Shown here: positions 40,242 through 64,000 of the stretch, in pieces
Layout: each line of letters starts with the position of its first letter
How positions within the stretch are numbered: position 1 is the first letter of the stretch
The notes under the pieces: generated by a model
What the model was told of the DNA's origin: nothing
The model's input: only the letters and a program-made list of their open reading frames with translations
The model's database searches: none
IMG/VR virus record: IMGVR_UViG_3300013121_000007
Location: 1-64,000 of that record
DNA: 64,000 bases
Strand: one strand, 5' to 3'
From: a virus
Taxonomy: Duplodnaviria > Caudoviricetes
Position numbers and translations under genes: made by a program

Positions 40242-40600
40242 TTTACACGCCCAGGTTCGATGATCCACGAAATGTCTTCTAGAGGTCTAGGCCCTGTGAC
40301 ATCTGGATAAGTAGGGGCCTCCAGTGTTTCAATCTTGTAGTCCTGCAGATGGTTGTGAAATCTAATCGCATAGAAGTTCCACAACCAGTCAAGTGCCTTT
40401 TCTCTCCTAAGTTCCGGATACCCTTGTTGAAGTAGGTACAGCTTTGTCTGCTCTAGAGTGCATTCAAAGCTGTCGCCAGTAGGAAGACTAATCTCTATGT
40501 CCTCAGAGCCTACTTCTTTGCGTAGTTCGATGTACGGGAAATTACGATTGATTGGTGGAAGCTGCACGTCAATCAGCCAACTTCTGCAGGGACCCGCCAA
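40238..40600 (-). CDS. Hypothetical protein
   Basis: ORF in the head operon; stop overlaps the protease ATG. Confidence 0.5.
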   Translation of the reverse strand: MAGPCRSWLIDVQLPPINRNFPYIELRKEVGSEDIEISLPTGDSFECTLEQTKLYLLQQGYPELRREKALDWLWNFYAIRFHNHLQDYKIETLEAPTYPDVTGPRPLEDISWIIEPGRVK

Positions 40601-41345
40601 ACACGACTTGATGGATGGCCTCCTCTGTCGAGCGCGGGAAAAGACTCTTCAGCTTGCGAACAACCTCTGTACGAGCTTGCTCACTGAACCCCAAACCTGA
40701 CAACGGTTGTGGGATCATCGGAAATGCACCCGTAATCGTAGTCTCCAGCAAGTTCGCCGAGGCTGTAACGGATTCACCTCTACTCTTTGCAGTTGCTTTC
40801 CTGAGCGCTCTTCTTTGACGGGCTGCCGCATTCTTGGACTTACGATCAGCCTCTTGGTCTCTTGGCTTACCTGTTCTTCGAGAGACAGGAGCAGCCTTTT
40901 TCCGAAGACGGTCTCGCCTGGCGCGAAGAGTCTTCAGGTCTGCCTTACTCATGTGCTTCAGATTGACTTTCTTCAGCTTCCTTCCAGTATCTGGATTCTT
41001 GATAGTCTTGCCCTTGCCCTTGCCACGCATCTTGGCAAGAACCTTTGGGTTTCCAGCGACAGGCTTCCCCTTACCTGGTGTGCCCTCGAAGCCAACTCTG
41101 TGCCCTGAATCCATTGTCCGCCAATAGTCAGGCTTAGGGGCTTCAAGCAAGATGTTGACAGCCTCTTCCAGTTGCTGCGACTCGTCAAGACCGATCATTT
41201 TCTTGTAGACTCCCATGATGTAGTCATACTCATTGTTGTGGCCTTGATCTTCAGCCGCAGCCTTCGCCATCTCCCATCTCTTCTCAGCTTCTGCTGTTGA
41301 CAGACCAACCCTCTTAGCAAGCGAGTAGACAGCAGAAGCCGGCAT
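40569..41345 (-). CDS. Basic putative head-internal protein
   Basis: AEKRWE.AK.AA...Y.YIMG.YKKMIGLDE (T4 gp68-like pattern); Lys/Arg-rich centre; LxE sites. Confidence 0.55.
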   Translation of the reverse strand: MPASAVYSLAKRVGLSTAEAEKRWEMAKAAAEDQGHNNEYDYIMGVYKKMIGLDESQQLEEAVNILLEAPKPDYWRTMDSGHRVGFEGTPGKGKPVAGNPKVLAKMRGKGKGKTIKNPDTGRKLKKVNLKHMSKADLKTLRARRDRLRKKAAPVSRRTGKPRDQEADRKSKNAAARQRRALRKATAKSRGESVTASANLLETTITGAFPMIPQPLSGLGFSEQARTEVVRKLKSLFPRSTEEAIHQVVFGGSLQKLAD

Positions 41346-51555: not shown

Positions 51556-51870
51556 TCACTCTTTGGTTCCCACTGAATATCCGTAGAGACTCTCAACCAC
51601 AGACTCAAAAGAAGGACGAACTTTTCCGCATTCAACCCATTCAGGCCCCTTAGGTGCTCCGACCTCAGCATCGCCATCAACTTTGGTCACGCCGTCAATT
51701 TGATTGAAGGCAGAGTCCCACTCCTCATACTTGTCTTGTTCATCTGAGTCGCTTAGTGAATACCTAAGCATTCCAGTGGCTGTATTGAACCACACTTTCC
51801 CATATCCGGGGTCCTCTGCAGGTGATAGCCTCAGCATCACCTTTTTGATTTCAGCTACAGTGTCCGCCAT
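51556..51870 (-). CDS. Hypothetical protein with C-terminal tag variant
   Basis: Ends RPSFESVVESLYG. Confidence 0.55.
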   Translation of the reverse strand: MADTVAEIKKVMLRLSPAEDPGYGKVWFNTATGMLRYSLSDSDEQDKYEEWDSAFNQIDGVTKVDGDAEVGAPKGPEWVECGKVRPSFESVVESLYGYSVGTKE

Positions 51871-51874
51871 ACCA

Positions 51875-52684
51875 TCACTTTATGGAAAGCAGTCTAGTGA
51901 ACAGGTTTCTGTGGTCCTCCTTCCAACGCTCTACAGTATTGTTGGATACAGCAGAGTACCTAACCCTTAGAGGTTCGTAGGCATCCCACAGAGCAGACTC
52001 AAGGTCTTCTTGACTTCCAGGCTCAAATAAGTGAACTCCTGGAATATCAGCATACTCGTCAGCTAGCCCAACACCTCTTGGTATCACGATACTTTTGCCG
52101 AGCGACAGCCCCTCCAACAAGCTAACAGGGCCGCTTTCGTAGTCGCTTGTTGTAAGAAATACGTCGACTGCCTGCATCTGCGCGTGGAGATGACTCTCAG
52201 ACCAATTGCCGGGGGAAGCTACAAGTTCAACCCAAGACAACTGCCTTACAAACTCCAGCAAGTCAGTCCGTTTTCTACGGCCATATCCATCAGGTGAACG
52301 GTGAAACCACCCCACACGGAGTCTAGGTATGGCTCTGGAAAATTTGACTGGTAAGTGAACACGAGTGACTTTGTCTTCGCCAACAAGATTTTTCAGGTAC
52401 TCTGCATGTTGGCTGCTGAGAGCAACACAATGATCTACCTGAGAGGCAATCTTGTTGTATGTGTCTTGATGCTTTCCAGGTACATAGTGCGTAAACAACG
52501 CAACGCACTTGCCTACTGGTTTATAGAACTCCCTGAACAAGTATGTCAGGAAATACGTCAAATCCGTATCACGAGGAGGGTCACATGTAACACGAACGCG
52601 AAACCCATCAAGGGCTTGCAGGTGCTCCGATAGCCGCCTACAAATCCAAGATTCTTCCGTCGTGATATGCACCCGATGTATCAT
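51875..52684 (-). CDS. Glycosyltransferase, GT-B fold (GT4-like)
   Basis: DVFLTTSDYESGPVSLLEGLSLGK; similar to 5810..6571. Confidence 0.8.
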   Translation of the reverse strand: MIHRVHITTEESWICRRLSEHLQALDGFRVRVTCDPPRDTDLTYFLTYLFREFYKPVGKCVALFTHYVPGKHQDTYNKIASQVDHCVALSSQHAEYLKNLVGEDKVTRVHLPVKFSRAIPRLRVGWFHRSPDGYGRRKRTDLLEFVRQLSWVELVASPGNWSESHLHAQMQAVDVFLTTSDYESGPVSLLEGLSLGKSIVIPRGVGLADEYADIPGVHLFEPGSQEDLESALWDAYEPLRVRYSAVSNNTVERWKEDHRNLFTRLLSIK

Positions 52685-53016
52685 GTTTTGTGAGACACCA
52701 GCGATTCCAACTCTTCGTCGATACTCGCGCCACCCAAGACTCTATCCACAAGACCAGACAGGTATCCTGAAGGCAACTCTTCTAAATGAACGAATCGCAT
52801 CCGACCTAAAGTCCTTGCGACCTTCATGTGTGCTGTTTCAACAACGAAGCTGTAGTTCCTAGAATTGTGTGGACTGAAGAGAAATGAGTCCCCAATCGGC
52901 AGTTTCTCGATACGGTAGTTTCCGTGAGTGATTGGAGAAGTCTCTTCAACAACCTTCCCACAATGCACCATCCGCCCCAACAGTTCGCCTTCAACCGTCA
53001 CGTACTCAGACATCAT
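52681..53016 (-). CDS. Hypothetical protein
   Basis: ORF with overlapping start/stop codons. Confidence 0.5.
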   Translation of the reverse strand: MMSEYVTVEGELLGRMVHCGKVVEETSPITHGNYRIEKLPIGDSFLFSPHNSRNYSFVVETAHMKVARTLGRMRFVHLEELPSGYLSGLVDRVLGGASIDEELESLVSHKT

Positions 53017-53474
53017 AGACCTCTTAGATTGGTGACAGGTCGTTCTACTAAAGGTGCAGCAGCCGCTCTTTGATCCAAGTAGAACCGAAACTTGTCAGCG
53101 TCACAAGGTGAAACAGCAAATGGTATGGTTTCCAGCATACCAAGATCAGCCATGTCTCGCAGCAACACAAACAGATGCATTCCTGACCTGAAAGCTAGAT
53201 GCGAGTTACCAAGCATCATCACTTCAGGGGGTTCAAGGTTTGCGTAGTTCTTCAAGAGATAATCTCTTGCAGCTTGATCTATCTCCTCGGCGTTACAGGC
53301 TTGTACACGAGATATGTACTCCTGTGGAACACTGCCACGCCAGCAACGATCAACAGTAAGCACGTTAGCGTCTACGACTCGAAACCCCAAAGAAGCTGCG
53401 CGGCGTGACAGCTTGAAGCGAAGCTCAGAAGGTTTGGGGCAGAGAATCATGACGAGTAAGCAACAGTCTACCAA
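53013..53474 (-). CDS. Hypothetical protein
   Basis: ORF in operon. Confidence 0.45.
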   Translation of the reverse strand: MVDCCLLVMILCPKPSELRFKLSRRAASLGFRVVDANVLTVDRCWRGSVPQEYISRVQACNAEEIDQAARDYLLKNYANLEPPEVMMLGNSHLAFRSGMHLFVLLRDMADLGMLETIPFAVSPCDADKFRFYLDQRAAAAPLVERPVTNLRGL

Positions 53475-53983
53475 TGTAGACTTGAAGATGAGTCTTCAGA
53501 AAGAAGAGCTTCAACCTGTGACTCAAACGGACCCATAGTATCCTCATAGATATCGGTGTTTGATCTGCTGAACTTGCCAGAGTTCTTATCCGCCGACTTG
53601 ATTTGCTTGTTGCTGAAGACGACAGCCATGTTTCTCTTGGGATCGAAGATTCCGTCATACCCCATTTTCTTCAAAACAGTGTGCAGCTTAGGCGTAGAGA
53701 CACTGCCACCCGAAGAAGCAATTCGGTAAACATCATCGAACGTCGCAGGATTCTCAATTCTCAGGTAGCACTTGAGTGGACTGCCGAAGCCACTCGCGAA
53801 GTTCTCACGAGTCGCGAAGAACACTCCACGAATATCTGTCTTTCGAGAACGACTTACGTCGAACACCCGAAACTGCTTGCTCGTTCCGTGGTAGACGACC
53901 AACGGTCTACCCGCTGAATCGACAACCTTGGAATTCGCAAACCATTTCCGAAACTGTGGAGTGTCAGTCACTGTACTCATCAT
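53468..53983 (-). CDS. ADP-ribosyltransferase-like protein (ART-PolyVal type) with C-terminal GPFE tag
   Basis: TPQFRKWF.NSKVVD..GRPLVVYHGT, GVFFA, YLRIENP, GYDGI, VVFS.KQIKS..NSGKFS; then MGPFESQVEALLSE. Confidence 0.75.
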   Translation of the reverse strand: MMSTVTDTPQFRKWFANSKVVDSAGRPLVVYHGTSKQFRVFDVSRSRKTDIRGVFFATRENFASGFGSPLKCYLRIENPATFDDVYRIASSGGSVSTPKLHTVLKKMGYDGIFDPKRNMAVVFSNKQIKSADKNSGKFSRSNTDIYEDTMGPFESQVEALLSEDSSSSLHW

Positions 53984-54345
53984 CAGGAAATGTAAGCGAC
54001 CACTTCGTACCGACCGGTGTCGAATTTGTGCCACGACAGGATGAGCATGGCGTTGTCAATGATCGTATGAACATCGTAGTCGTCAGCAGTCCCCACAACA
54101 CCGATTTCAATGCGAGCGTTTCCATCACGACCTGTCAAGAACCCGGACCATGTAGTTCCGTCTTCCTGCACAAGCAAGTACCCGCGTCTCCGCAGAATGT
54201 CATCAATAGACTTCAGCGGAATCTGAGACTGTATGGGTCTCACAAGGTCCGCAATGTCTCCGTTCATCTGATTTCGGATGCCTGCGGGTATCCGTATCAT
54301 GGCCCCACTGAACTGAGATTCAACCTGTGACTCAAACGGACCCAT
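53510..54345. repeat. Identical 27-bp direct repeat encoding MGPFESQVE in two adjacent genes
   Basis: ttcaacctgtgactcaaacggacccat at 53510-53536 and 54319-54345. Confidence 0.95.
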
Positions 54346-54651
54346 GTTTTGGCCTTCAATAGCGCTGCCGTGAATCACCACCGGCTGAACTTTTCGGACA
54401 ACCATCGTGGTGTTGGCTGGTTTCAACATCTTGATCTCGTACCCTGCTTTACAGAGAGGATTCCTCAGTTTTTCGAGTTCATCCCGATGTAGGTATTCAT
54501 CCTCGCCGACGTTGCGCCAGATTACCGTAGCGTGATTCTCTTTGGCTATACGAACCTCAAATCCTGACTGTCCTCCTGCAATGTACAGAGGAGCAACTTG
54601 GCTAATCACAGCTTTTAGCCCTGTCGCATCTAGGGGTTCATAGACGTTCAT
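53983..54651 (-). CDS. Two-domain hypothetical protein with internal GPFE tag
   Basis: Likely ATG 54651; IEGQNMGPFESQVESQ separates the domains; C-domain ends LSWHKFDTGRYEVVAYIS. Confidence 0.65.
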   Translation of the reverse strand: MNVYEPLDATGLKAVISQVAPLYIAGGQSGFEVRIAKENHATVIWRNVGEDEYLHRDELEKLRNPLCKAGYEIKMLKPANTTMVVRKVQPVVIHGSAIEGQNMGPFESQVESQFSGAMIRIPAGIRNQMNGDIADLVRPIQSQIPLKSIDDILRRRGYLLVQEDGTTWSGFLTGRDGNARIEIGVVGTADDYDVHTIIDNAMLILSWHKFDTGRYEVVAYIS

Positions 54652-55721
54652 GGTTTTGGTGATGGTAGCTGCTTCTCCCAAAATGATCCAGCTACGTCTA
54701 CCCAAAGTTTTCTAGTCTTCGGTTCAGACGCCGCTACCCGAAGCAACTCACGATTGGCCTCATTACCGCCCTGAAGAACACCCGCGACTGGCTGCCAGAT
54801 CAGCATCTGATGACGAAAAGTATGGTACAAGTCATAAGCCGGATCATGACCGATCCCGACAAAGCTGTAAGCTCTCCTAACAGCGTCAATGAACACTTGC
54901 CTATGGGGAAGCATCTTCTCTAGTGTCGTACTACGAATCACCTCCGGAGAAACACCTGAGAACTTGCTAGAAACTGATGCTACTGAATCTGCAACGCTGA
55001 TAGCATCGAAGCTGACAAGCTCTGTTGTACTAGGGTCGAAAAGCTGATTCCTGGTACAGTCACCAGAGGTTGCTACCACTGGTACACCGCACAGCAGATA
55101 TTCAGTTGAAGCGTAGTTTGACCCCTCTCTTTCAGAGAGTGACAACCCGCAAGTGGATCGTTGAATCCACGATGGAACTTTGTCTCTTGGAATAGCCCCC
55201 GTGAACGAACCATTTTTGAATTGCGGCGCAACAACGTTCTCAAAACTCAGTATTGATTCCGTATAGGTCTTCGTTTCGTCCTTGAAAGATTCCATTGTCA
55301 GCCACAACCACTTACCGCGAATATGGCTGCAGAGATCAAGTCGCTTTCTCGCTATAGGCCGAGCAATGTAGATGGCCGCATACTCTTTTGAGCAATCCAA
55401 AGGACGATACACCCTTTCATCACACAATGCGTTTGGTTGGAACGGAGAAGCCAACAAACCACTTGACAGGAAAGCATCAAGCTCTTGAGGTCTATCAAGA
55501 AGAAACTCAATGTAATGATTGGGGTGGGAACACTGATGTTCTAGTGCCCACTTCGTAGCGTACTCAATGTCTCTGGGGTACAGCTTCCAATTTGTAGAGG
55601 CTAACACAGCCAAAGGTTGTGGAGACTCAAGCGCAGAAGCAAATTGAGGTTCCCACGGTGTCTTAGCGTAGACAACAGTAGGCTCCCTGTGCAGCACTTG
55701 GAAGAACTGGGACGTAGACAC
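54648..55721 (-). CDS. Glycosyltransferase, GT-B fold
   Basis: AIYIAR...RKR, GLSLSEREGSNYASTEYLLCGVPVV. Confidence 0.8.
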   Translation of the reverse strand: MSTSQFFQVLHREPTVVYAKTPWEPQFASALESPQPLAVLASTNWKLYPRDIEYATKWALEHQCSHPNHYIEFLLDRPQELDAFLSSGLLASPFQPNALCDERVYRPLDCSKEYAAIYIARPIARKRLDLCSHIRGKWLWLTMESFKDETKTYTESILSFENVVAPQFKNGSFTGAIPRDKVPSWIQRSTCGLSLSEREGSNYASTEYLLCGVPVVATSGDCTRNQLFDPSTTELVSFDAISVADSVASVSSKFSGVSPEVIRSTTLEKMLPHRQVFIDAVRRAYSFVGIGHDPAYDLYHTFRHQMLIWQPVAGVLQGGNEANRELLRVAASEPKTRKLWVDVAGSFWEKQLPSPKP

Positions 55722-55722
55722 T

Positions 55723-56880
55723 TCAATCCAGAAACTTCACCTTGACGGCTTTCTGCATATTGTCTTTTGGGTTTTCGTCAGTGTCCCCAAAATTGAAGTA
55801 GTTGCCGATGTAGTGACGTCGAATTTCGTCCTCCGTTCCATTGATGTCTGTACGAATCGTGTTACCGTCTTGAAACGTGACTTCAATGGACCGACGACGG
55901 CTCGCGTTAGGGTCAGATGCCTCTTCAATGCTGTTCCCGACACCCAGATAGGCTTGAACTGTTTTGTCGTCTGGATGCACGACCTTTGACTTCATCAACG
56001 GGTAGTCAAACTTCATGGCATCTTCGTAGGACGCTGCTTGAAATGCTCGCTGCTTGCTTCGAGTCACCAGGATCGTAACCCAAGCAGCTTTGTTTCCGCC
56101 CACGCTTTGGTACGACTTCACAGCGAACAAATCTCGTCGGATGCCTTCGTGGATTGGAAGTGTCACCAAACCATCATCGAGGTACGCCGCTTCCAAGCAA
56201 TCCGCAGGTCCGGAGCCTTCAGCCATACGAACGTCATAGATGCCGTCCACAATAGCCTTCCGACCACGAGTTGATTCTCTCCAGACTTGAGGAGTTTTTG
56301 ACAGCATCAGATGCAGCGCAGTAGCTTTTGGGTAGCCTCGCAGAAGAGAATCCAAAGAGGGCTTGTCAACACTCTCCCTCTTTGTTGTTGTGGACTCTTT
56401 GACTTTAGGGGGACTTCTACGAGCTTGCTCCATTTCTTTATCCTCTGGTTTTCTTCCAAGCAGAGCAACAACAGACTCTCCAACACTCAACCCAGCGCCG
56501 CTGTTTTGTACGCCCGTATTGCTAGCTGCAACTGCAGGAGTATGCGCACCCACACCACCTTGTTGAGAGAACCTTCCTCGTTTGAATCGAGACATGACAA
56601 ACGATCGACGGTGTGGCAGAGCTTTCTGGCTGGAAAAGTGCTGAAGTGGAGACGGCTCTCCAACCTCAACTACAGTACATCGCGTTGCACTCTCTGCGCG
56701 GATTCTTGCAGTTGCGGGATTCCTTGCAACGACATGCAAGTAAGCATACCCGCCTCCGGACTCAAGCATACGAGTATGCTGCAGTTGAACAAGCTCAGGC
56801 AGCGTCCCAGATACTGCTAGCCTCTCTCCATCCCCACGGAAGGAAACTGTAACGGGATAGCATTGCGGGATTGAATTCAT
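55723..56880 (-). CDS. Multidomain hypothetical protein (putative head-internal)
   Basis: Domains separated by xxE sites; GESVVALLG; C-terminal TDINGT.DEIRRHYIG.YFNFG domain. Confidence 0.6.
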   Translation of the reverse strand: MNSIPQCYPVTVSFRGDGERLAVSGTLPELVQLQHTRMLESGGGYAYLHVVARNPATARIRAESATRCTVVEVGEPSPLQHFSSQKALPHRRSFVMSRFKRGRFSQQGGVGAHTPAVAASNTGVQNSGAGLSVGESVVALLGRKPEDKEMEQARRSPPKVKESTTTKRESVDKPSLDSLLRGYPKATALHLMLSKTPQVWRESTRGRKAIVDGIYDVRMAEGSGPADCLEAAYLDDGLVTLPIHEGIRRDLFAVKSYQSVGGNKAAWVTILVTRSKQRAFQAASYEDAMKFDYPLMKSKVVHPDDKTVQAYLGVGNSIEEASDPNASRRRSIEVTFQDGNTIRTDINGTEDEIRRHYIGNYFNFGDTDENPKDNMQKAVKVKFLD

Positions 56881-56904
56881 TGATGCAGTCCAGTGACCAA
56901 GGCC

Positions 56905-57971
56905 TCAAAGATTGATTTGGACTTTGCGCTTGGCATCATTGTATAGGATGCGAACTGCCTCTACCCCAGCACCCTGAAGATCAGACTTGTTGCATGACCG
57001 CTTGTACCAGAGTGACGTTGAGTCATGACAGACAAAGTCTTCATTGTTGACGAATGCGTGTACAGTGTCTTCTTCTGTATCGTAGTCCTGTCCGTAGGCA
57101 GGAGTCAGAATTACAAAAGACTTCTGAGACTCTCCGATAGCAGTTGCAAAGTCAATTATGTCCTTGCGCGCAGCCGTCGCACCTGCTTTGATTTGACTGT
57201 CGCTACTGCTCGTCAAATATCCAGGGTCTTTCCCAGTAATGACTTGCCGCAAGTAGGCTCGATACCCCAAGCCTGCAGTACACTGATGCTTCGGATTTTT
57301 CAAGCTGTCAGACAGAAGCCTCTCAGCCGCTTTGATCCAGTTGATTCCTTCATTGAGGCTGACGCTGCTGTGCTTGTTCTTTCTCTCACGGACATGTCTC
57401 TTGAAAGCGGCAGCTACATTGTCTGCGACACGACGATTTCGCTTGATTGCCGCAGCAGTGTGAGCTTTAGACGCCCCACTCTGCGGGGCTAAACGAAAGG
57501 GCGGTAGCTCAGCTTCTCCGTTAGTGGGGACAGGTCCAGAGGCTGACCAGACTCAGACAAGTTAGAATCAGTCTCTTCGATGTCTCCTCGCTGAAACGTA
57601 TGCGAATTTCCGAGTGTGTCGATGAGAGTCACGTCTGTCAGCCTCTCTGCCAGACTAAACAACCCTGAAATGAACTTGTTGAAGTTGCTTTGCGACGGCT
57701 TCCCACTCTCATGCAGGACAGCATTCGCGTCAGCGCCTCGTTTTGAGATGACTCGGAATGTTCTCTCGCAGACGAGAGAAAGACGCACACCTCGATTGTG
57801 AGGTTCCAACTGACAGGACAGCACCCTGACTGGACCGTCCTTGATTGCAGCTTCAATGATGGGGTTGACTGTAGTCGCGTACTCTTGAGGAGAGTACGAG
57901 TCCGGATTGACGAAGCCGAACATGCGGCTGAGTGCCATTCTTGGCTCAATCTGTCGAACGTGTGCGTGCAT
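56905..57971 (-). CDS. Hypothetical protein expressed as a 160-aa short form and ~355-aa -1 frameshift fusion
   Basis: ORF 57489..57971 ends C CCT TTC GTT TAG; the -1 frame is open from there to 56905 and includes ORF 56905..57303 (LTPAYGQDY domain). Confidence 0.7.
57473..57501 (-). promoter_or_regulatory. Programmed -1 ribosomal frameshift signal
   Basis: Slippery C_CCU_UUC (57501-57495), 5-nt spacer, stem-loop GCCCCGC-AGA-GUGGGGC (57489-57473). Confidence 0.7.
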
Positions 57972-58099
57972 ACTGTCTCTCCAATCAACGGAAAATACCG
58001 TGTCTAGCTGATTGACGAAAAACCGCCCGCTTTTTTCTTTTCCAGGCTTGCAGTTGTTGTCGCAACCATGCTCCTGCGCAGACCTTACAGTCTGCTATC

Positions 58100-59275
58100 C
58101 TACGTCTGCAAGTGGAGTTGATCCTTCGCACCCGCAGCTACTTGCTCTGCCTTGATACTGACTACCCGACCTTTTCTCTCTGCAGCCGTCAACTTCCGGA
58201 AAGCCGCTTGGTAGTCCAGAAGTACAAGGTCTACCTGCCAATCGGCAATAGACGCAAAGTAGTCGATGGCCATCTTGGGCATGTGGACTCGATCTTTCGA
58301 CGTCCAACGGTAGTCGTCAAACAACAGAATACCGTTTTCTTTCAACCGGGGAATAGACACTAGTCCATCATGGAGACAGTCAATGGCTTCATGTGACCCA
58401 TCGACGTAGATTACGTCGAAGTGTTCCTCAGGAAACAAGGAAACAGCATTTCGAGAGAAATCACGTATCTTCCTAACACGGTGAGACTGGCCTGAAATTG
58501 CGATGTTCCAGTCAAATGCGCGCTCGCGGGATCGAAGTTGCCAAGGGTCAATGCAGACCAGCGAGGAGGATTGGTCCGTAAGGATATTCTCCAACCACCA
58601 GATTGCGCTCCGTCCCTCGTAAGAGCCAATCTCAAGGAATCGAAGATTGGGCTTCCCCTTCAGATGAGAAAACAGTCTGACCCAGTGTGGTATTCTGTGC
58701 GTAACGTAGTCTGTGCCAGAGGTGTATGCTGGGCGCATAGCTACCCTGAGAGCGTCATCACCTGTATTCAAAATAGGAAAGTCTTTGGACTCTTGCGGCT
58801 CTGCTACTTTCAGCATACCGCATACTGAAGACCAACTTAGTGAGTCTAATGGAATACTGTAGACCCGATCAGAATGTTTCAGCCTTGCGTCTGTTACTAC
58901 TCTTTGATGCAGGTCATAATGCAACCTCAAGTGGTCTGTAGATGGTATATCCATCTCACTGTGCTTGCCAGACTTTCTGTACGCTGCTGTACGCACCAGC
59001 ATAGACGTCACCCAGTCTTCTACTGGTCTATAGATGTTGACTAGGATTGCGTCTTCGTATAAGTCGGCAAGTTCCTCCACTGGAATGTCCATCTCGAAGC
59101 CGAACAGAGCTTGGACTTCATAGACAGACTTGTCGATCTCACCCTGTCTTGCTTTCCTTGCAATTTCAGCAGCCCATTTTGCGTCTCGTACACATTTCAG
59201 ACCACATTGAACCATAGACTCTTGCAAGCTATGCGAGGCGGTTCGGGGAAGCCCAATGTAGATTACAGTCTTCAT
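58100..59275 (-). CDS. Sulfotransferase-like domain fused to class I methyltransferase (Methyltransf_24-like)
   Basis: IGLPRTASHSL (PAPS loop), R.VEDWVTS; FLEIGSYEGRS, CIDPW, FDVIYVDGSH, GILLFDDY.W. Confidence 0.8.
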   Translation of the reverse strand: MKTVIYIGLPRTASHSLQESMVQCGLKCVRDAKWAAEIARKARQGEIDKSVYEVQALFGFEMDIPVEELADLYEDAILVNIYRPVEDWVTSMLVRTAAYRKSGKHSEMDIPSTDHLRLHYDLHQRVVTDARLKHSDRVYSIPLDSLSWSSVCGMLKVAEPQESKDFPILNTGDDALRVAMRPAYTSGTDYVTHRIPHWVRLFSHLKGKPNLRFLEIGSYEGRSAIWWLENILTDQSSSLVCIDPWQLRSRERAFDWNIAISGQSHRVRKIRDFSRNAVSLFPEEHFDVIYVDGSHEAIDCLHDGLVSIPRLKENGILLFDDYRWTSKDRVHMPKMAIDYFASIADWQVDLVLLDYQAAFRKLTAAERKGRVVSIKAEQVAAGAKDQLHLQT

Positions 59276-60588
59276 GCTTTATCCTCCTGCCTGTCAGAAA
59301 AGTATCCAGCCACTTTTCTAACCATCTCTGGTTTGTTACTCAACGCAGACTCGCTCCACTGCAAAAGACCAGACTCTGCATCCGTATCAATATCGGTTCT
59401 TGGATCGAAACTATAGTCACTGAGAAACAACCAGCGTTTCAAGTAGTTTCTTCGCGACCGGGAACCGTGAAACATGTGCACAATGTCACCGGGAATGTAA
59501 GTGAACGACTTACCCCCGCACTCTCTTACTTTGTTACCCCATTCCTCGATACACCGGAGCCAGCCCTTTGAAATGTATCTGTCAACCCAGAATCTGTCTC
59601 CGGATATTGCCTTGATCTGATTTACATCACCTCCGCCGATGACATTCGTATCCAAGAACCCAAACTGACGAAACCATTCTGTACGCGCAGCCCACGCAAA
59701 CCCAGGATGAGACTTGCCAAATGACGTGAAGTCCTTGTGACAGTTTACGTAATGCCATCCAACTGACCTCTTGAGCGGCGTCAGCGATCCGTTGAACTGA
59801 GTGAAGAATGAGTTCTCAAAAAGTTGACACCAGTTATGCAGGCGTAATGCTTGCCTCAGGTCATCGACCCACTTCAAGCTACAGAAATGAACATCAGCAT
59901 CAATCCAGCAAAATGCTTCGTAGCAGTCTGGTAGCTTGGCCAATAACAGATTGAGAAGCCTCTCCTTTTGCCACAATAGCTGCGTATCTCTGTTTCCCTC
60001 TACACGAAGAAACCTGTCTGACTGAGGAAACACAAATCCCGATGGACCATCGTAGGACAACTCTATGTTCCAGTGGTCTACATCGTACAACTCCAGTTCA
60101 CGGCTAAACAGATTGAAGTTCCTTACCAAGTTAGTATAGCCACAGGGGTTGTAAAAGCAGGTTAGGACTGCAATTCGTTCAACATCCAACGGCCTGACAA
60201 TATCAGGCCGAACAAAGTCACAAGGCTTAGACTCATAAGTGTTGAAGTAGACTACACGATCCACTTCAACTTGCTTCTGCTGCTGAAAAAAGAACAAGCC
60301 ATTACGGTTTCCGTAGCGTCTAAAGTGCGCAGCAGCAGACGTCACTTCAGGGTCACGCTTTGCTTCTAAGAAGGCCCGCACTGCGGGGTAGTGCATTATA
60401 TACAGGTTGCTATCCAATTGACTTGGAACAACCCATACAGGCTGGTGCCCAGCAGACTTACCAAAGCGAGTCCAATGATCGAACCCACTAGAGCATGATT
60501 TTGCCCTGACTGCAGTTCTTGCATCTTCGTAGCGTGCAAGGTAAGCCGCTTCATAGAAGACCGGCTGTTCTAGACTCATCTGCGACAT
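59272..60588 (-). CDS. GT-A-fold glycosyltransferase-like protein with N-terminal YL..Y..V..H..FG repeats
   Basis: TCFYNPCGY, LWQKERLLN, WIDADV, HPGFAWAAR, IGGGD, HMFHG. Confidence 0.7.
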   Translation of the reverse strand: MSQMSLEQPVFYEAAYLARYEDARTAVRAKSCSSGFDHWTRFGKSAGHQPVWVVPSQLDSNLYIMHYPAVRAFLEAKRDPEVTSAAAHFRRYGNRNGLFFFQQQKQVEVDRVVYFNTYESKPCDFVRPDIVRPLDVERIAVLTCFYNPCGYTNLVRNFNLFSRELELYDVDHWNIELSYDGPSGFVFPQSDRFLRVEGNRDTQLLWQKERLLNLLLAKLPDCYEAFCWIDADVHFCSLKWVDDLRQALRLHNWCQLFENSFFTQFNGSLTPLKRSVGWHYVNCHKDFTSFGKSHPGFAWAARTEWFRQFGFLDTNVIGGGDVNQIKAISGDRFWVDRYISKGWLRCIEEWGNKVRECGGKSFTYIPGDIVHMFHGSRSRRNYLKRWLFLSDYSFDPRTDIDTDAESGLLQWSESALSNKPEMVRKVAGYFSDRQEDKA

Positions 60589-60591
60589 GTC

Positions 60592-61056
60592 CTACGTCTT
60601 CTTTGCAGTTGCCCCGCGGCGCATTTGATTGTTTGGCCTTCTCGCTGCTGTGAAGTTCGGAGCTTTCGTTTTTCTGTAGTCGATACGGTGACGCCGTTCT
60701 GTAACAGGGCAACCTAAAAGAGCGTCAACAGCTTCCTTGATTCGATTGTCAAGCATTGAGCTACTCCCTTGTTCTGCGAACTTTGGTGTATTCACTGGTA
60801 CTGTAGAGAGGTGGGACGACTCTTTCAACCTCACGCGCCCAACGTAGAAACCGTCCTCTTCCTGACTGACAAACTGAAATGAATGCTCACCTCGGTTCAC
60901 CATCACATACCAGCAGTTTTTGGAACCGCTCCACCAAGAGAAAGCAGCAGCTTTACGAAGTACCGGTACACTGTGAATGAAAGCCTCTGCCGATGCACTT
61001 GAATGAAACTCAAGCGCATTCTTTGGTGCTTCTGATACTTCAGACTGTGACGTCAT
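60592..61056 (-). CDS. Hypothetical protein
   Basis: IKEAVDALLG helix, basic tail. Confidence 0.55.
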   Translation of the reverse strand: MTSQSEVSEAPKNALEFHSSASAEAFIHSVPVLRKAAAFSWWSGSKNCWYVMVNRGEHSFQFVSQEEDGFYVGRVRLKESSHLSTVPVNTPKFAEQGSSSMLDNRIKEAVDALLGCPVTERRHRIDYRKTKAPNFTAARRPNNQMRRGATAKKT

Positions 61057-61316
61057 CAGCCGTGCGGATAGTTATTTCTGAGGTAGTTGGAAGCATCGTC
61101 CATCGAAGTAAATGTCAGCTTGAGAAGTTCTTTCGGGTTGCTGTGAGCGGGCCTAGCGATGAACATAGTAGGTTTTGTCCCTGTTTCGTTCACCCAGCCA
61201 ATGATCTGCCGTGTCACAAAACTGCGCACCGTAATCCAGCCCTGCGGAACGATCTTTTCATCTGGTAGGGGCGTTGACTCAACCAGCGTCTCGACTTGCT
61301 CTTCAAATGGTCCCAT
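61056..61316 (-). CDS. Small protein with N-terminal GPFE tag
   Basis: MGPFEEQVETLVES; RBS GGGGA. Confidence 0.65.
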   Translation of the reverse strand: MGPFEEQVETLVESTPLPDEKIVPQGWITVRSFVTRQIIGWVNETGTKPTMFIARPAHSNPKELLKLTFTSMDDASNYLRNNYPHG

Positions 61317-61358
61317 GAGTATCCCCCTGACCTAGGTTAGAGCATCGTTGTAGTCATA

Positions 61359-61910
61359 TTACTTGAGAAGAACTGCAACGGTGATATGAAAATCGAATTC
61401 GTTGTTACGAGGTAGCCGACTAAGCCCCAGAGACTCTCTGAAGTCTTCTAACTCTGGCGAACGAACAGTCACATACCAGACCTTTTCCCAAGTGTCTGAT
61501 TCTGGAAAAACCAACTTGAGTGGTCCGATTTGATACCTGAACTCATGACCCTCAAAAACTTTCAGGCGGTCAGCCCCACCCGCCGCTTCGACATCCGATG
61601 GGTGCAAAACTGAAATGTGCGCATTCAGTCTACCTTCATTGTACTCATCGCTGGTAGGCAACTCGATCCCAGGAACATCAAGTGTTGAAAACACACCCTC
61701 AACGAACTTGTTCGGCACTGCGAGCAGCATCCACCCAGAATCTGCTCTGTAGAGTTTCCCAGACATACGAGTCTGAAGAATGGGGGATGTCGTCTCCCGC
61801 TCAACCACAACAATTCGACCTAACCCCCACGGAGTTCGTTGAAGTGGCGGAGTAGACGCTGAGCGTCCCTCACACAAGGCGTTCACACGGCGTTCAAATG
61901 GTCCCATCAC
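61359..61910 (-). CDS. 2H phosphoesterase (Acb1/LigT-like fold) with N-terminal GPFE tag
   Basis: Two Hx(S/T)h motifs, AHISV and FHITV; V.SPELE.FRESLGL; starts MGPFERRVNALCE. Confidence 0.8.
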   Translation of the reverse strand: MMGPFERRVNALCEGRSASTPPLQRTPWGLGRIVVVERETTSPILQTRMSGKLYRADSGWMLLAVPNKFVEGVFSTLDVPGIELPTSDEYNEGRLNAHISVLHPSDVEAAGGADRLKVFEGHEFRYQIGPLKLVFPESDTWEKVWYVTVRSPELEDFRESLGLSRLPRNNEFDFHITVAVLLK

Positions 61911-62613
61911 CGCTTCCTAGGTACTTGTTTTCAAAGAAGGCCGCGACAACTTGTCGTGTAACTGGACTGTCGGACCCAGCACACTCAAATTGGAACTCAA
62001 AAGCGCGTCCGTCGTCACTCTTTGGTTGCTCTCGCGGACCTTTTCTCATCCTCGTGTAGTAAGCACTTGCGTTGTGGACCGACCATGCCCCTAGCTTGAC
62101 GATGGAGCCGTCTCTGTTCAACAGAGAAGCTGTATCTGATCCTGCCAATTTCAGCAACACACCATCCTGGTTGTACTTCTGCCGCAACAACTTCATGCTA
62201 CCCAGGAACTGCTCAGCAGACTGCGCATAGTCGTCCGAGGTTGGCCCTGAGACAATCAGGGATTCTTCCTCAACCTTTCTGGTCTCATCTGACCCATCTA
62301 TGGATTCAATCCAACCTCCGTATACTGGCGTATACCCGTAGCCGAGACTACGGATGTCTGACATCAGTGACCGATTCCGTCCTCTATTCTGTGTCAGGGT
62401 AAACTCCCCGCCGCGGAATGCCGAGATGATGGCTACATTTCTTGCCGTCTCGCTGAACAGGGCGAATACGCGAGCAAGAGAGCGTCCCGCAGCCTCCTCA
62501 AGAGACACCCCATCCATTGCTGCCAGATACTCGACATACAGGCGCGGAAAGTCTTCCGTGTTGACGCGGGAGGCCTTGTAGGCGTTGTCGATCAAGTCCT
62601 CAAACAAACCCAT
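61894..62613 (-). CDS. S-adenosylmethionine lyase (T3 SAMase-like)
   Basis: IISAFR...N..RNR.L...I....G.W.E....EEESL.V....KYNQDGVL matches the T3 gp0.3 motif order (SAFR, GxYxE, EE, QDxVL) as recalled. Confidence 0.65.
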   Translation of the reverse strand: MGLFEDLIDNAYKASRVNTEDFPRLYVEYLAAMDGVSLEEAAGRSLARVFALFSETARNVAIISAFRGGEFTLTQNRGRNRSLMSDIRSLGYGYTPVYGGWIESIDGSDETRKVEEESLIVSGPTSDDYAQSAEQFLGSMKLLRQKYNQDGVLLKLAGSDTASLLNRDGSIVKLGAWSVHNASAYYTRMRKGPREQPKSDDGRAFEFQFECAGSDSPVTRQVVAAFFENKYLGSGDGTI

Positions 62614-62646
62614 GTTCTTCCCCTAGAAAGAGAGAATCTCTGTCCA

Positions 62647-62674
62647 ATTGTATCACGTTTCTCTCTTGAGTCAA
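62647..62674 (-). promoter_or_regulatory. Sigma70-like promoter with extended -10
   Basis: Minus strand TTGACT-16 nt-TACAAT, with TGn before -10; overlapped by inverted repeat AAGAGAGAA/TTCTCTCTT. Confidence 0.6.
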
Positions 62675-62681
62675 GCGTGAG

Positions 62682-62882
62682 TCATGTCACTGTCAGCCAG
62701 GGACCCATCGCGTTTTTCCAGTCTGAAATGGTCTTTGTTGGGACTTGGAAGTCAGCCTTTCTCTCATCCTTGGCGTTGAACAGACCCCATTTGTCCTCAG
62801 AGGCAGAATAAGGCATCAGTCTTTTGAGGACTGATCTGACTGGCGGCTCTTTCCACAAACAGAGCCTCAACCATAGACTCAA
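62682..62882 (-). CDS. Small hypothetical protein
   Basis: Fills gap on the coding strand. Confidence 0.35.
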   Translation of the reverse strand: MSLWLRLCLWKEPPVRSVLKRLMPYSASEDKWGLFNAKDERKADFQVPTKTISDWKNAMGPWLTVT

Positions 62883-62909
62883 ACAACCCAGGAGTATTCA
62901 CAGGACTAC

Positions 62910-63833
62910 TCATTGTTGTGAGAGTACCCAACGACTTAGCATAGACTGCGTATATTGCTGCCAGCCCTTTGGAAACACACGATTCAACTTCTGTAGAATC
63001 GTGTTGTACACAGTGGTTGCTCTTTTCAATTGTCTTCTCTGATTATCCAGCGTCAGGCTATCCCAATAGCCGATTTTTCTTGCGACTTCTACAAACTTCG
63101 CAGGGAACTCACGAGGACTTCTTCCGAGTATCCCTTGCCAGCCTCTGACCTCTTTGGCTGTATTCCTTGGTGAGCCGTCTCTTCCCAACGAAGTTAGAGT
63201 ATGGTCAAGCTCTGAAAGCAGCGGTTCGACAGTCTGCTCAAAGTAAGCCTGCAATTCAGCATCTGAGTTGTAGTACGCCGTGAAAACACTCTTATCGTTA
63301 GTCTTGTCTGGTGTAGACTTGTCGATTACAGACGCATCAGGAGCTTTGTACCCACCCATTACCTTATTTCTCTTTGAATCAAGGTAATGTGTGTACTCGT
63401 GCTTGAACGATTCTGTGATTACAAGGCTGCGCCAGAACTTGTAAATGTTGTCACCGATGTAGAGCACAAAGTCTTCTGGAGACAACGGAACAGCAAGCTG
63501 AATTGTTGGTCTATCACCATCCCTCTGCGGAGGTCCAAAACCACCGGCGATATGACCTGTCATGGGTGCAAACGACAAGAACCCATCGAACACTTTGTTT
63601 ACTCTAGTGATGCTTCTGAAGTCGAACCCGATTCCATGCTCTGGACCTTTCGGGTGTACCTCACAGAATCTTGCAAACAGGGGCGGACTACCCTGGATTG
63701 TCCTGAAGAATTCACCAATCGTATTGTGAGCTACGTTGACTCGATCATGTGTCGTCCAATCGTTACGTCGCTCCACGATACGATTGACTTCAGCCTCAAA
63801 GGGGCCAATACGAGATTCTGTACTTGTAGGCAT
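62910..63833 (-). CDS. Zincin-like metallopeptidase with N-terminal GPFE tag
   Basis: FKHEYTHYLD (HExxH) plus downstream YYNSDAELQAY (third-ligand Glu); starts ..IGPFEAEVNRIVE. Confidence 0.75.
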   Translation of the reverse strand: MPTSTESRIGPFEAEVNRIVERRNDWTTHDRVNVAHNTIGEFFRTIQGSPPLFARFCEVHPKGPEHGIGFDFRSITRVNKVFDGFLSFAPMTGHIAGGFGPPQRDGDRPTIQLAVPLSPEDFVLYIGDNIYKFWRSLVITESFKHEYTHYLDSKRNKVMGGYKAPDASVIDKSTPDKTNDKSVFTAYYNSDAELQAYFEQTVEPLLSELDHTLTSLGRDGSPRNTAKEVRGWQGILGRSPREFPAKFVEVARKIGYWDSLTLDNQRRQLKRATTVYNTILQKLNRVFPKGWQQYTQSMLSRWVLSQQ

Positions 63834-63839
63834 TTCAGG

Positions 63840-63998
63840 CTACCTGAGATTGTTTGCGTAGCGACTGCTCATGAACTCAACTGTCTTTGATACGGCGTCG
63901 CGAAACCCGCGGCCTTCCATCATAACAGCTAGGACTGTAAAGAACTTGACATAGTCCTTGACTGTATTGAGTGCAACGCAGATAAGCTGCAGCGTACT
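63840..63998 (-). CDS. 3' end of a hypothetical gene (partial)
   Basis: Open frame from the right edge ending ...EFMSSRYANNLR-TAG just before the next ATG. Confidence 0.4.
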   Translation of the reverse strand, partial: STLQLICVALNTVKDYVKFFTVLAVMMEGRGFRDAVSKTVEFMSSRYANNLR

Positions 63999-64000
63999 TG

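What the first reader, a model, noticed from the sequence alone, without database searches (positions are those of the whole stretch)
51556..63833. Shared GPFExxVxxLxE peptide tag on unrelated enzymes: candidate capsid-packaged counter-defence cocktail
Seen: MGPFESQVEALLSE (C-terminus of ART-like protein), MGPFESQVESQ (between domains, 54319-54345), MGPFEEQVETLVE (61316), MGPFERRVNALCE (2H phosphoesterase), IGPFEAEVNRIVE (zincin). Variants are MGLFEDLIDNA (SAMase-like) and PSFESVVESL (51556 gene). The tag occurs at N-terminal, internal and C-terminal positions and usually ends in (L/I)xE. Known: T4 internal proteins share a short capsid-targeting sequence removed by gp21 after Glu, and a gp21-like protease is in this window. 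Inference: a portable packaging tag loads ART, phosphodiesterase, SAM lyase and protease into the head for injection. The tagged unknowns (61056, 53983, 51556) are then new anti-defence candidates.
Basis: partly seen in the sequence, partly recalled or inferred. Interest (0 to 1): 0.82.

Follow-up and report, generated by a model that had tools for sequence, protein, structure and literature searches.

The report
Shared capsid-loading tag on phage enzymes
An uncultured T4-like phage puts the same ~13-residue peptide (MGPFExQVExLxE) on 16 otherwise unrelated proteins, several of enzyme kinds that phages are thought to inject with their DNA. It most likely works like phage T4's "load into the head, then clip off" signal, but no virus particle has been examined.

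Summary
The window is the first 64 kb of a 192.6-kb uncultured T4-like myovirus. Sixteen genes in one 17-kb stretch (53.5-70.2 kb, running past the window end) carry (M)GPFExxVExLxE. A profile finds nothing comparable in the other 175 kb.

With the tag masked, the 16 proteins share no similarity.

The tag recurs in a 172-kb relative (about 17-20 copies among its head genes, on entirely different cargo) and in 13 metagenome contigs.

Portability is shown in three families. Close 2H-phosphoesterase and HExxH-protein homologues carry the tag and distant ones do not. ART-PolyVal homologues elsewhere end exactly where the tag starts here.

AlphaFold models show a detached short helix, then a linker, then the domain. 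About 65% of tags end in hydrophobic-x-Glu, the T4 prohead-protease motif, and internal tags also have an upstream Glu. The genome encodes an S77 protease fused to an LxE-rich scaffold.

Best reading (about 0.6): a T4-CTS-like capsid-loading, excisable tag. Packaging and cleavage are untested.

The scan has noted analogous tags, with other sequences, in several other uncultured T4-like phages.

The parts
53468..54034 (-). ART-PolyVal ADP-ribosyltransferase with a C-terminal tag (tag MGPFESQVEALLSE at 53495-53536, preceded by I-Y-E-D-T)
   Evidence: Pfam PF18760 81.6 bits. Homologues elsewhere end where the tag starts and lack it. Tag scores 19.5 bits with the external profile.
53983..54705 (-). 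Two-module protein of unknown function with an internal tag (54304-54345, residue 121)
   Evidence: The tag shares 31 nt at 97% with the ART copy. A 42% homologue with an internal tag is in contig L030.
61056..61316 (-). 86-aa protein of unknown function with an N-terminal tag (61275-61316, MGPFEEQVETLVE)
   Evidence: Best-scoring tag, 21.2 bits with the external profile. No Pfam or PHROG match.
61359..61907 (-). 2H-SAK phosphoesterase with an N-terminal tag (61866-61907, MGPFERRVNALCE)
   Evidence: Pfam PF22547 39.4 bits. Both H-x-S/T motifs are invariant. In the AF2 model the tag is helix 3-12, the linker is 13-21 and the domain starts at 22. Close homologues are tagged and distant ones are not.
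61894..62613 (-). S-adenosylmethionine lyase family protein with a degenerate N-terminal tag (62572-62613, MGLFEDLIDNAYK; no L-x-E end)
   Evidence: Pfam PF23780 39.9 bits. The L037 orthologue starts MGSFEDKVNARYK. It is not recovered by the external profile.
62682..62931 (-). Small tagged gene, apparently frameshifted: a 38/44-aa ORF with the tag PGLFESMVEALFVE (62851-62892), continued in another frame by a 66-aa ORF
   Evidence: Tag scores 9.1 bits with the external profile.
62910..63833 (-). HExxH (HEYTH) protein, a putative gluzincin, with the tag 8 residues from the N-terminus (63771-63809, IGPFEAEVNRIVE, then RR)
   Evidence: Invariant H145, E146, H149, Y187, N189, E193 in 12 homologues, and homologues down to about 30% identity keep MGPFE...L-x-E|R-x-S-D. 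In the AF2 model the tag is helix 11-18, there is a break, and the domain starts at 24. The fold is not matched.
63840..64000 (-). 3' end of the next tagged gene (63840-64640 of the contig; internal tag QGPFEKQVERLYTE at about 64337). Eight further tagged genes follow, up to 70224, outside the window.
   Evidence: Locus L002 = contig 51001-71000.
38484..40268 (-). Prohead protease (S77/gp21-like domain, residues about 80-305) fused to a coiled-coil scaffold tail carrying about 14 L-x-E sites; the presumed processing enzyme and docking core
   Evidence: Pfam PF03420 68.8 bits and phrog_207. LxE map. Relative L003 encodes the two halves as separate genes.
36946..38415 (-). gp23-type major capsid protein. 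Its N-terminal propeptide has hydrophobic-x-Glu sites conserved in 7 relatives.
   Evidence: Pfam PF07068 166.7 bits. Alignment.
40569..41345 (-). Basic (pI 10.3) 258-aa protein in the head module with a tag-like LEEAVNILLE|AP at residues 60-69 (41142-41171); a candidate internal-protein analogue
   Evidence: Relaxed-motif scan gives 13 hits vs 0.5 in shuffles. The gene at the same position in G001 starts MDIFEQAVDRLLE. pI.
51556..51870 (-).
   Evidence: 5.8 bits and 2.5 bits, within the noise.

Best explanation
The peptide (M)GPFExQVExL-hydrophobic-E is a portable address label, a short acidic amphipathic helix on a flexible linker. It docks otherwise unrelated proteins onto the scaffold core while the prohead assembles. 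The S77 (gp21-like) prohead protease then usually cuts it off after the Glu that ends the tag, and for internal or C-terminal tags also after a Glu just upstream. The freed cargo would stay in the head and enter the host with the DNA. The cargo comprises an ART-PolyVal ADP-ribosyltransferase, a 2H phosphoesterase, a SAM lyase, two HExxH proteins and about ten proteins of unknown function.

Shown: the tag is real, it is under protein-level selection, it is portable between protein families, it is specific to this phage lineage, and it is structurally detached from its cargo. The genome also has the T4-type protease/scaffold/capsid set.

Inferred: docking to the core, cleavage, packaging, injection, and any counter-defence role.
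For: 1. Sixteen copies lie in 16.8 kb and there are none elsewhere in 192.6 kb. Synonymous sites vary between copies.
2. The cargo proteins are unrelated once the tag is masked.
3. Portability. The eight closest 2H-SAK homologues (45-99% identity) start with MGPFE..VE and seven more distant ones lack it. The same pattern holds in the HExxH family. ART-PolyVal homologues end where the tag begins here.
4. Lineage-wide use with cargo turnover. Relative G001 (64% capsid identity) has 17 relaxed-motif hits vs 0.55 in shuffles. These sit between its capsid, protease and neck genes, and it has no homologue of any G000 cargo. Thirteen metagenome contigs carry tandem tagged genes, and L037 is a syntenic copy of the locus.
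5. Architecture matches T4's CTS. The T4 CTS is 10 N-terminal residues (MKTYQEFIAE) with targeting residues 4 and 7 and processing residues 8 and 10, cut after Glu (PMC9026906, PMC8442874). Here an invariant aromatic residue sits at position 4 and hydrophobic-x-Glu at the end in 35 of 54 tags.
6. Internal tags have a Glu 3-4 residues upstream in 11 of 19 cases against 23% expected (p=0.001). This fits excision on both sides, as for T4 Alt, which is trimmed at both termini (PMC9026906).
7. The genome has an S77 protease fused to an LxE-rich scaffold, and conserved hydrophobic-x-Glu sites in the capsid propeptide and at the protease N-terminus.
8. AF2 models of two cargo proteins show the tag as a low-confidence helix separated from the domain by a disordered stretch. 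The helical hydrophobic moment is near the 95th percentile of shuffles.
9. A basic head-module protein carries a tag-like motif, and its positional counterpart in G001 is tagged.
10. ART-PolyVal and 2H-SAK are domain families predicted to be virion-packaged and injected (PMC5512222).
Against: - No virion proteomics exist; the phage is uncultured and its nearest cultured relatives share only about 33% capsid identity.
- There is no sequence similarity to the T4 CTS itself.
- 19 of 54 tags lack Glu at position 10/11, including the SAM-lyase copy.
- A C-terminal tag cannot act as a removable N-terminal propeptide, and T4's CTS has only been shown to work N-terminally.
- Most G000 cargo proteins are not basic (pI 5-6 for 9 of 15), unlike T4's internal proteins.
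- No T4-type late promoter (TATAAATA) was found, so late expression is not shown.
- Nearly all genes lie on one strand, so co-orientation with the head genes means nothing.
- In G000 the tagged locus lies 13-30 kb from the head genes, not among them.
Confidence: 0.6

Rival explanations
1. The tag is a docking helix for some other common partner, not the prohead: for example a phage chaperone or hub, a host protein, or the tags of the other cargo proteins (a non-covalent multi-enzyme bundle).
For: A detached amphipathic acidic helix is a generic protein-binding element. It works at N-terminal, internal and C-terminal positions, which suits a linear binding motif better than a classical propeptide. 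19 of 54 tags lack the terminal Glu. In G000 the locus is not within the head module.
Against: No candidate partner gene is consistently linked with the tags. In G001 the tagged genes are interleaved with capsid, protease and neck genes. The hydrophobic-x-Glu ending and the upstream Glu of internal tags have no role in this reading. The T4-type machinery is present.
Confidence: 0.15
2. The tag is a leader or recognition site for an enzyme encoded nearby. Either the locus's own HExxH peptidases cut polyprotein-like cargo at the tags, or a modifying enzyme (glycosyl-, methyl- or sulfotransferase island, or radical-SAM enzyme) uses it as a RiPP-like leader, independently of the capsid.
For: Two HExxH proteins lie in the locus. 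A GT1/methyltransferase/sulfotransferase island interrupts it. A GT1-like gene is the only accessory gene shared by G000, G001 and a tag contig, and it lies next to tagged genes. Tags sit at module junctions, and one protein has two. An earlier scan case (e1-127136) linked a shared phage leader to a radical-SAM enzyme.
Against: G001 has the tags but no homologue of either HExxH protein, although that contig is only 78% complete. The conserved tag residues (F, E, V, E, L, E) include no usual glycosylation or thioether target. What follows the tag is a set of unrelated folded enzymes, not a modifiable core peptide. The radical-SAM gene is about 39 kb away and is paired with Cys arrays elsewhere (note). 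The GT gene lies in the collinear backbone.
Confidence: 0.1
3. The motif has no function of its own. It is a DNA-level repeat (a gene-cassette recombination joint or shared translation start region), or the remnant of a common ancestor of a paralogous family.
For: One pair of copies shares 31 nt at 97%. In some metagenome contigs neighbouring tagged genes also share upstream residues. Tags lie at junctions where modules have been exchanged.
Against: The other copies are 63-80% identical in DNA, differ at synonymous sites and keep the peptide. The peptide is conserved across genomes with 64% capsid identity and in metagenomes. Internal and C-terminal copies cannot be start regions. The masked proteins show no similarity and include three different Pfam families.
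Confidence: 0.03

Closest known systems
[quoted passage not shown]
   Same: A 10-14-residue peptide shared by otherwise unrelated, fast-evolving accessory proteins. It is mostly at the extreme N-terminus, has an aromatic residue at position 4 and ends in hydrophobic-x-Glu. The phage has a gp23-type capsid and a gp21/S77 protease plus scaffold. An ADP-ribosyltransferase is among the cargo. Cargo turns over between related phages.
   Different: There is no sequence similarity to the T4 CTS. There are 16 tagged genes rather than 3-5. The tag also occurs internally (residues 77-121) and C-terminally. The cargo is mostly non-basic and includes 2H, SAM-lyase and HExxH proteins. Nothing here has been shown experimentally.
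Long N-terminal propeptides of inner-head/ejection proteins of giant phages phiKZ, 201phi2-1 and SPN3US, cut after Glu by a gp21-related protease (PMC5694885)
   Same: Cleavage after Glu at short motifs. Propeptides of more than 100 residues resemble the 77-121-residue N-terminal modules in front of the internal tags. Paralogues gp53/gp54 share an identical 15-residue N-terminus containing the cleavage motif.
   Different: Those propeptides are not one short label shared by many unrelated proteins, and this phage is not a phiKZ-like phage.
Polyvalent proteins and MuF/portal-fused effectors (Iyer, Burroughs, Anand, de Souza, Aravind 2017, PMC5512222)
   Same: The same domain vocabulary: ART-PolyVal and 2H-SAK by Pfam, and HExxH peptidase-like proteins. 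The best PHROG matches of the ART are 1664- and 2900-position families, and the HExxH domain also occurs inside 697- and 1439-aa proteins. The predicted role is the same: effectors delivered with the DNA.
   Different: Here the domains are separate genes, or at most two or three modules, each with its own short tag, rather than 2-15 domains in one polypeptide anchored by MuF or portal. No MuF domain was found on them.
Encapsulin cargo-loading peptides (from my own knowledge; not tested here)
   Same: A short, portable terminal peptide that docks diverse enzymes to the interior of an HK97-fold shell, and works at either terminus.
   Different: Those peptides bind the shell protein directly, are not cleaved, and encapsulins are not viruses. 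No sequence resemblance was checked.

Membership tests
T4-type capsid targeting sequence (CTS) / prohead-protease propeptide system | One short peptide shared by otherwise unrelated proteins of one phage | tested here: met
   16 copies. Masked all-vs-all blastp gives no pair with E<0.1. Three different Pfam families are among the cargo.
T4-type capsid targeting sequence (CTS) / prohead-protease propeptide system | Located at the extreme N-terminus, 10-20 residues long | tested here: inconclusive
   42 of 54 distinct tags follow a Met directly. In G000, however, only 8 of 16 are N-terminal, 6 are internal, 1 is C-terminal and 1 is in a frameshifted gene.
T4-type capsid targeting sequence (CTS) / prohead-protease propeptide system | Ends in the prohead-protease site (L/I-x-Glu in T4) | tested here: inconclusive
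   Glu sits at position 10 or 11 after hydrophobic residues in 35 of 54 tags and is absent in 19. The specificity of this phage's protease is unknown; it is only inferred from conserved sites in the capsid propeptide and scaffold.
T4-type capsid targeting sequence (CTS) / prohead-protease propeptide system | gp21/S77 protease, scaffold core and gp23-type capsid protein in the same genome | tested here: met
   PF03420 68.8 bits, PF07068 166.7 bits, phrog_207. Scaffold tail identified by the split genes in L003.
T4-type capsid targeting sequence (CTS) / prohead-protease propeptide system | Sequence similarity to the T4 CTS MKTYQEFIAE | tested here: not met
   By inspection only the aromatic residue at position 4 and the terminal hydrophobic-x-Glu correspond (vs PMC8442874). 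This is an analogous tag, not a demonstrably homologous one.
T4-type capsid targeting sequence (CTS) / prohead-protease propeptide system | Tagged proteins are present in the mature head, the tag has been removed, and the tag suffices to package a foreign protein | not testable with these tools
   The phage is uncultured and no proteomic data exist.
Polyvalent proteins (Iyer et al. 2017) | Two to 15 domains of disparate activity in one polypeptide | tested here: not met
   Each recognised enzyme domain stands alone in a protein of 182-239 aa. At most two or three modules are separated by tags.
Polyvalent proteins (Iyer et al. 2017) | Domain families characteristic of polyvalent proteins | tested here: met
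   ART-PolyVal PF18760 and 2H-SAK PF22547 score above their Pfam thresholds. The LPD-domain resemblance of the HExxH protein is only a weak lead.
RiPP-like shared leader recognised by a linked modifying enzyme | Consistent genomic linkage of tagged genes with one modifying enzyme family | tested here: inconclusive
   Only a GT1-like backbone gene is shared by G000, G001 and L030. The radical-SAM gene is about 39 kb away. Most tag contigs are too short to judge.
Zincin metallopeptidase (for the gene at 62910-63833) | HExxH plus a third zinc ligand, and the zincin fold | tested here: inconclusive
   HExxH and E193 are invariant in 12 homologues. Foldseek gives no hit with E<=0.001. VIA-align matches only the C-terminal helical bundle, at Z<=7.7.

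The most novel reading that the evidence does not exclude
The tag is a position-independent, excisable address label that defines a whole 'injectome'. On this reading any protein or module flanked by it is loaded into the prohead. Glu-specific cuts on both sides of the tag then release it, so that two- and three-module proteins are split into separate effectors inside the capsid. This would be an unfused, shuffle-ready counterpart of polyvalent proteins, with the tag-coding DNA doubling as the joint at which cargo cassettes are exchanged. If so, scanning for the tag would predict the delivered effector set of a whole clade of uncultured phages.
Probability: 0.35. Interest if true: 0.75.

Novelty: new variant of a known kind. 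Interest (0 to 1): 0.6.

Why it matters
Proteins that travel inside the capsid act before any phage gene is expressed. They are the first line against restriction, CBASS-type signalling and similar defences, yet outside T4, P1 and a few jumbo phages they are known only from virion proteomics of cultured phages. A sequence label that marks such proteins would allow the delivered arsenal of uncultured phages to be read from the genome alone.

Here the label points to about ten proteins of unknown function per genome as candidate early-acting effectors. It also ties the 'polyvalent protein' domain families to a second delivery route based on a tag.

The tag itself (13 residues, working at either end of a protein in nature) would be a candidate tool for loading foreign proteins into capsids, as the T4 CTS already is.

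Tried and rejected
- **Close relatives in public phage collections.** Megablast of the locus against 50,697 GenBank phages found no match. tblastn of one cargo protein also found none. So no cultured relative and no proteome are available.
- **Tag pattern in IMG/VR.** An exact back-translated MGPFExQVE pattern gave 0 hits. Relatives were reached through the capsid protein instead.
- **T4 late promoter.** TATAAATA occurs nowhere in the genome, so expression timing could not be inferred. Strand co-orientation is uninformative because almost every gene is on the minus strand.
- **Plus-strand candidate near 100.2 kb.** MKPNSFEEAVESL scores 9.5 bits with the external profile. It was set aside because it lies on the almost gene-free strand, and it was not examined further.
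- **The look-up of encoding contigs.** I therefore could not fetch the 136-kb and 68-kb contigs that hold tagged homologues, or the context of the untagged 2H homologues.
- **Fold of the HExxH protein.** Foldseek against PDB and VIA-align wide gave no convincing match.
- **ESM Atlas.** The results were leads only: metallopeptidase-like clusters for the HEFGH protein and weak LPD-domain neighbours for the HEYTH protein.
- **Most cargo remains unannotated.** Pfam and PHROGs gave nothing for about ten G000 cargo proteins and for most tagged proteins of the relatives.
- **The 2026 NAR paper on glycosylated DNA (PMC13326640).** It cites the CTS only as T4 background.
- **Paralogy and DNA-repeat explanations.** Both were rejected on the evidence.

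Full report
**What the window is.** The window is the first 64 kb of a single 192,583-bp virus contig with 51% G+C. Almost every gene is on the minus strand. It is a distant T4-like myovirus.
- The 489-aa product of 36946-38415 matches Pfam Gp23 (166.7 bits).
- The 594-aa product of 38484-40268 carries a Peptidase_S77 (gp21) domain (68.8 bits).
- Sheath, sheath-stabiliser and baseplate genes follow.
- The nearest GenBank phages share only about 33% capsid identity, and no DNA match exists.

**The observation.**
- There is a sixth, unreported copy (PGLFESMVEALFVE, 62851-62892).
- On the whole contig the cluster continues to 70.2 kb. In total there are 16 copies of G[PL]FE..[VI]-type tags within 16.8 kb and no convincing copy in the other 175 kb.
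- A profile built from the 16 copies separates members (>=15.9 bits) from everything else (<=7.3 bits).
- A profile built only from tags of other genomes recovers 12 of them at 8.7-21.2 bits.
- The four weak copies (70221, 67280, 65725, 62610) have orthologues in other contigs with good or conserved tags.
- Copies differ at synonymous sites (63-80% DNA identity), apart from one 31-nt pair at 97% (53506-53536 and 54315-54345). Selection therefore acts on the peptide.

**Where the tag sits.** Eight G000 copies are N-terminal, one of them 8 residues in. Six are internal at residues 77-121, one is C-terminal (the ART) and one lies in a small, apparently frameshifted gene. Two proteins also have a second, tag-like stretch further in (FEQTVEPLLSE and FERPVEAMTE).

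**The cargo is unrelated.** With the tag masked, no pair of the 16 proteins reaches E<0.1.
- Pfam recognises ART-PolyVal (81.6 bits), 2H-SAK (39.4 bits) and S-AdoMet lyase (39.9 bits), each lying outside the tag.
- Two proteins have HExxH motifs.
- One has a sub-threshold Lar-like zinc ribbon.
- About ten have no family.
- The locus is interrupted at 54.6-61.0 kb by untagged genes, including GT1-like and methyltransferase/sulfotransferase genes.

**The tag is lineage-wide.** Capsid-protein relatives were found in IMG/VR.
- The only long relative (G001, 172 kb, 64% capsid identity) was fetched whole. It has a looser version, M-x-x-FExxVxxL-hydrophobic-E. A strict regex gives 38 hits in the two genomes together, against 5.4 in shuffles. 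A version requiring the terminal Glu gives 17 hits in G001 against 0.55.
- The structural modules are collinear (G000 3.7-47 kb with G001 68-128 kb), but not one G000 cargo protein has a homologue in G001. In G001 the tagged genes lie between the capsid, protease and neck genes.
- A metagenome scan with a back-translated MGPFExQVE pattern returned 13 contigs, most with several tagged genes in tandem: six in 3.5 kb in L031 and nine in 14 kb in L037.
- L037 is a syntenic copy of the G000 locus at 26-67% identity. L030 matches the 51.8-57.5 kb part.
- From 54 distinct tags the consensus is M-G-P-F-E-[KQT]-Q-V-E-x-L-[FV]-(x)-E. F and E are invariant, V is present in 47, and Glu sits at position 10 or 11 in 35.

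**Portability.**
1. The eight closest homologues of the 2H enzyme (45-99% identity) all start with MGPFE..VE. Seven further homologues (41-51% over the domain) start directly at the domain.
2. In the family of the HEYTH protein, homologues down to about 30% identity keep MGPFE...L-x-E followed by R-x-S-D. The most distant members lack the FExxV part. The same domain also occurs inside proteins of 697 and 1439 aa.
3. ART-PolyVal homologues elsewhere end at the point where the G000 protein continues with MGPFESQVEALLSE, and none carries the tag.
4. The domain that follows the tag in the 67291-67842 gene sits behind different N-terminal modules in L031, L037 and L029, so the tag marks a module junction.

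**Structure.** AlphaFold2 models were made for the 2H enzyme (mean pLDDT 76.6) and the HEYTH protein (79.1). In both, the tag is a short low-confidence helix (residues 3-12 and 11-18). An unstructured stretch follows, and the confident domain starts at residue 22 and 24 respectively. The helix is amphipathic and acidic, with a hydrophobic moment near the 95th percentile of shuffles.

**Link to head maturation.**
- The 594-aa protease is fused to a coiled-coil tail with about 14 L-x-E sites. In relative L003 the two halves are separate genes, so the tail is the scaffold.
- The protease N-terminus has an invariant L-x-E, as noted for T4 gp21 (LIE-9; PMC9026906).
- The capsid propeptide has hydrophobic-x-Glu sites conserved in seven relatives, 24-36 residues before the conserved core.
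- Internal tags have a Glu 3-4 residues upstream of the tag in 11 of 19 cases, against 23% expected (p=0.001). Examples are I-Y-E-D-T-MGPFE in the ART and L-K-E-S-D-T-MGPFE. The tag could therefore be excised on both sides.
- A basic (pI 10.3) protein encoded next to the protease carries LEEAVNILLE|AP, and the gene at the same position in G001 starts MDIFEQAVDRLLE.

**Comparison with what is known.**
- In T4, the first 10 residues of IPIII (MKTYQEFIAE) suffice to load a protein into the prohead core. Residues 4 and 7 matter for targeting and residues 8 and 10 for cleavage by gp21 after Glu. The internal proteins are diverse anti-restriction proteins that share only this sequence. Alt, an ADP-ribosyltransferase, is trimmed at both ends (PMC9026906, PMC3012670, PMC8442874).
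- Giant phages use propeptides of more than 100 residues, cut after Glu (PMC5694885).
- ART-PolyVal and 2H-SAK belong to the domain set of 'polyvalent proteins', which are predicted to be packaged and injected (PMC5512222).
- The present tag has the same architecture and context as the T4 CTS but no sequence similarity to it. It labels three to five times more genes and also occurs internally and C-terminally.
- I found the string MGPFE in no paper of the library, and no paper describing such expanded tag sets. That search is limited.
- Earlier AI notes of this scan describe analogous tag sets, with other sequences, in several other uncultured T4-like phages. The phenomenon is therefore probably common in this group.

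**Rivals.**
- *A binding helix for a non-capsid partner* (0.15) is not excluded. It leaves the Glu sites and the head-module position in G001 unexplained.
- *A leader for a linked enzyme or for the locus's own HExxH peptidases* (0.1) was raised by an earlier case (e1-127136). Here G001 lacks both HExxH proteins, the radical-SAM gene is about 39 kb away, and only a backbone GT1-like gene is shared. The evidence is thin because most contigs are short.
- *A DNA repeat or paralogy* (0.03) is contradicted.

**Limits.**
- Nothing shows packaging, cleavage, injection or counter-defence activity.
- The 'zincin' label rests on an invariant HExxH...E motif only.

**Verdict.** The finding is best classed as a new variant of a known kind: a T4-CTS-like capsid-loading tag with a new sequence, more cargo and positional freedom.

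Noticed in passing
window 62682-62931 (-): A tagged 38/44-aa ORF (tag PGLFESMVEALFVE) stops early, while a 66-aa ORF continues in another frame from just after the tag. It looks like one roughly 85-aa tagged gene broken by a frameshift (pseudogene, assembly indel or programmed shift).
   Followed up: partly
window 53013-53536 (-): The 153-aa ORF downstream of the ART opens in another frame immediately after the ART's C-terminal tag (a stop codon in that frame overlaps the tag's final Ser-Glu codons). The tag may once have been the N-terminus of that downstream gene, captured by the ART through loss of its stop codon. A 57% homologue of the downstream ORF is in L030.
   Followed up: partly
window 38484-40268 (-) and L003:3432-5459: The prohead protease and the scaffold are one fused 594-aa gene here and in L004-L008, but two separate genes (339 and 300 aa) in relative L003.
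   Followed up: yes
window 42486-43874 (-): A 462-aa extremely acidic, low-complexity protein (long Asp/Glu/Ser runs) lies in the head module where a portal might be expected. It has no Pfam or PHROG match, ends in L-G-E-P-A, and is partly conserved in G001 (34% over 138 aa). The portal gene was not located.
   Followed up: no
window 51875-52684 and 54648-60588 (-): An island of untagged GT1-like, Methyltransf_24+Sulfotransfer_4 and unknown genes interrupts the tagged locus. It is syntenic in contig L030, and the GT1-like gene also lies next to tagged genes in G001. It could act on DNA or on proteins.
   Followed up: partly
L002:17468-18433 (-) = contig 68468-69433: The C-terminal part of this internally tagged protein has a D-G-H-H-R-W motif reminiscent of ParB/sulfiredoxin-type domains. 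It matches phrog_2859 (a 740-position family) and is 67-73% identical in L037 and L031, which makes it the best-conserved cargo.
   Followed up: no
L002:14774-15538 (-) = contig 65774-66538: A three-module protein with a tag at residue 80, a second tag-like stretch (FERPVEAMTE) at about residue 191, and then a Cys4 zinc ribbon with a sub-threshold match to the Lar restriction-alleviation family (PF14354, 22.2 bits against a cut-off of 28.6).
   Followed up: partly
contig about 100,180-100,422 (+), outside the window: An ORF starting MKPNSFEEAVESLASG scores 9.5 bits with the external tag profile. It lies on the nearly gene-free plus strand, so it may be a chance match or a lone extra member.
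   Followed up: no
proteins P0009-P0015 (untagged 2H-SAK homologues): The untagged distant homologues of the 2H enzyme carry C-terminal extensions of 20-130 residues that the tagged ones lack. These may be a different localisation or packaging signal in other phage lineages.
   Followed up: no
L031:2037-2906 and G001 129563-130562: C-terminal tags also occur in other genomes: MGPFETQVEASFTE plus 8 residues in L031, followed at once by the next gene's own N-terminal tag, and two G001 ORFs ending ...FEQIVNRLLEGEE and ...FEQAVERLLNG.
   Followed up: partly
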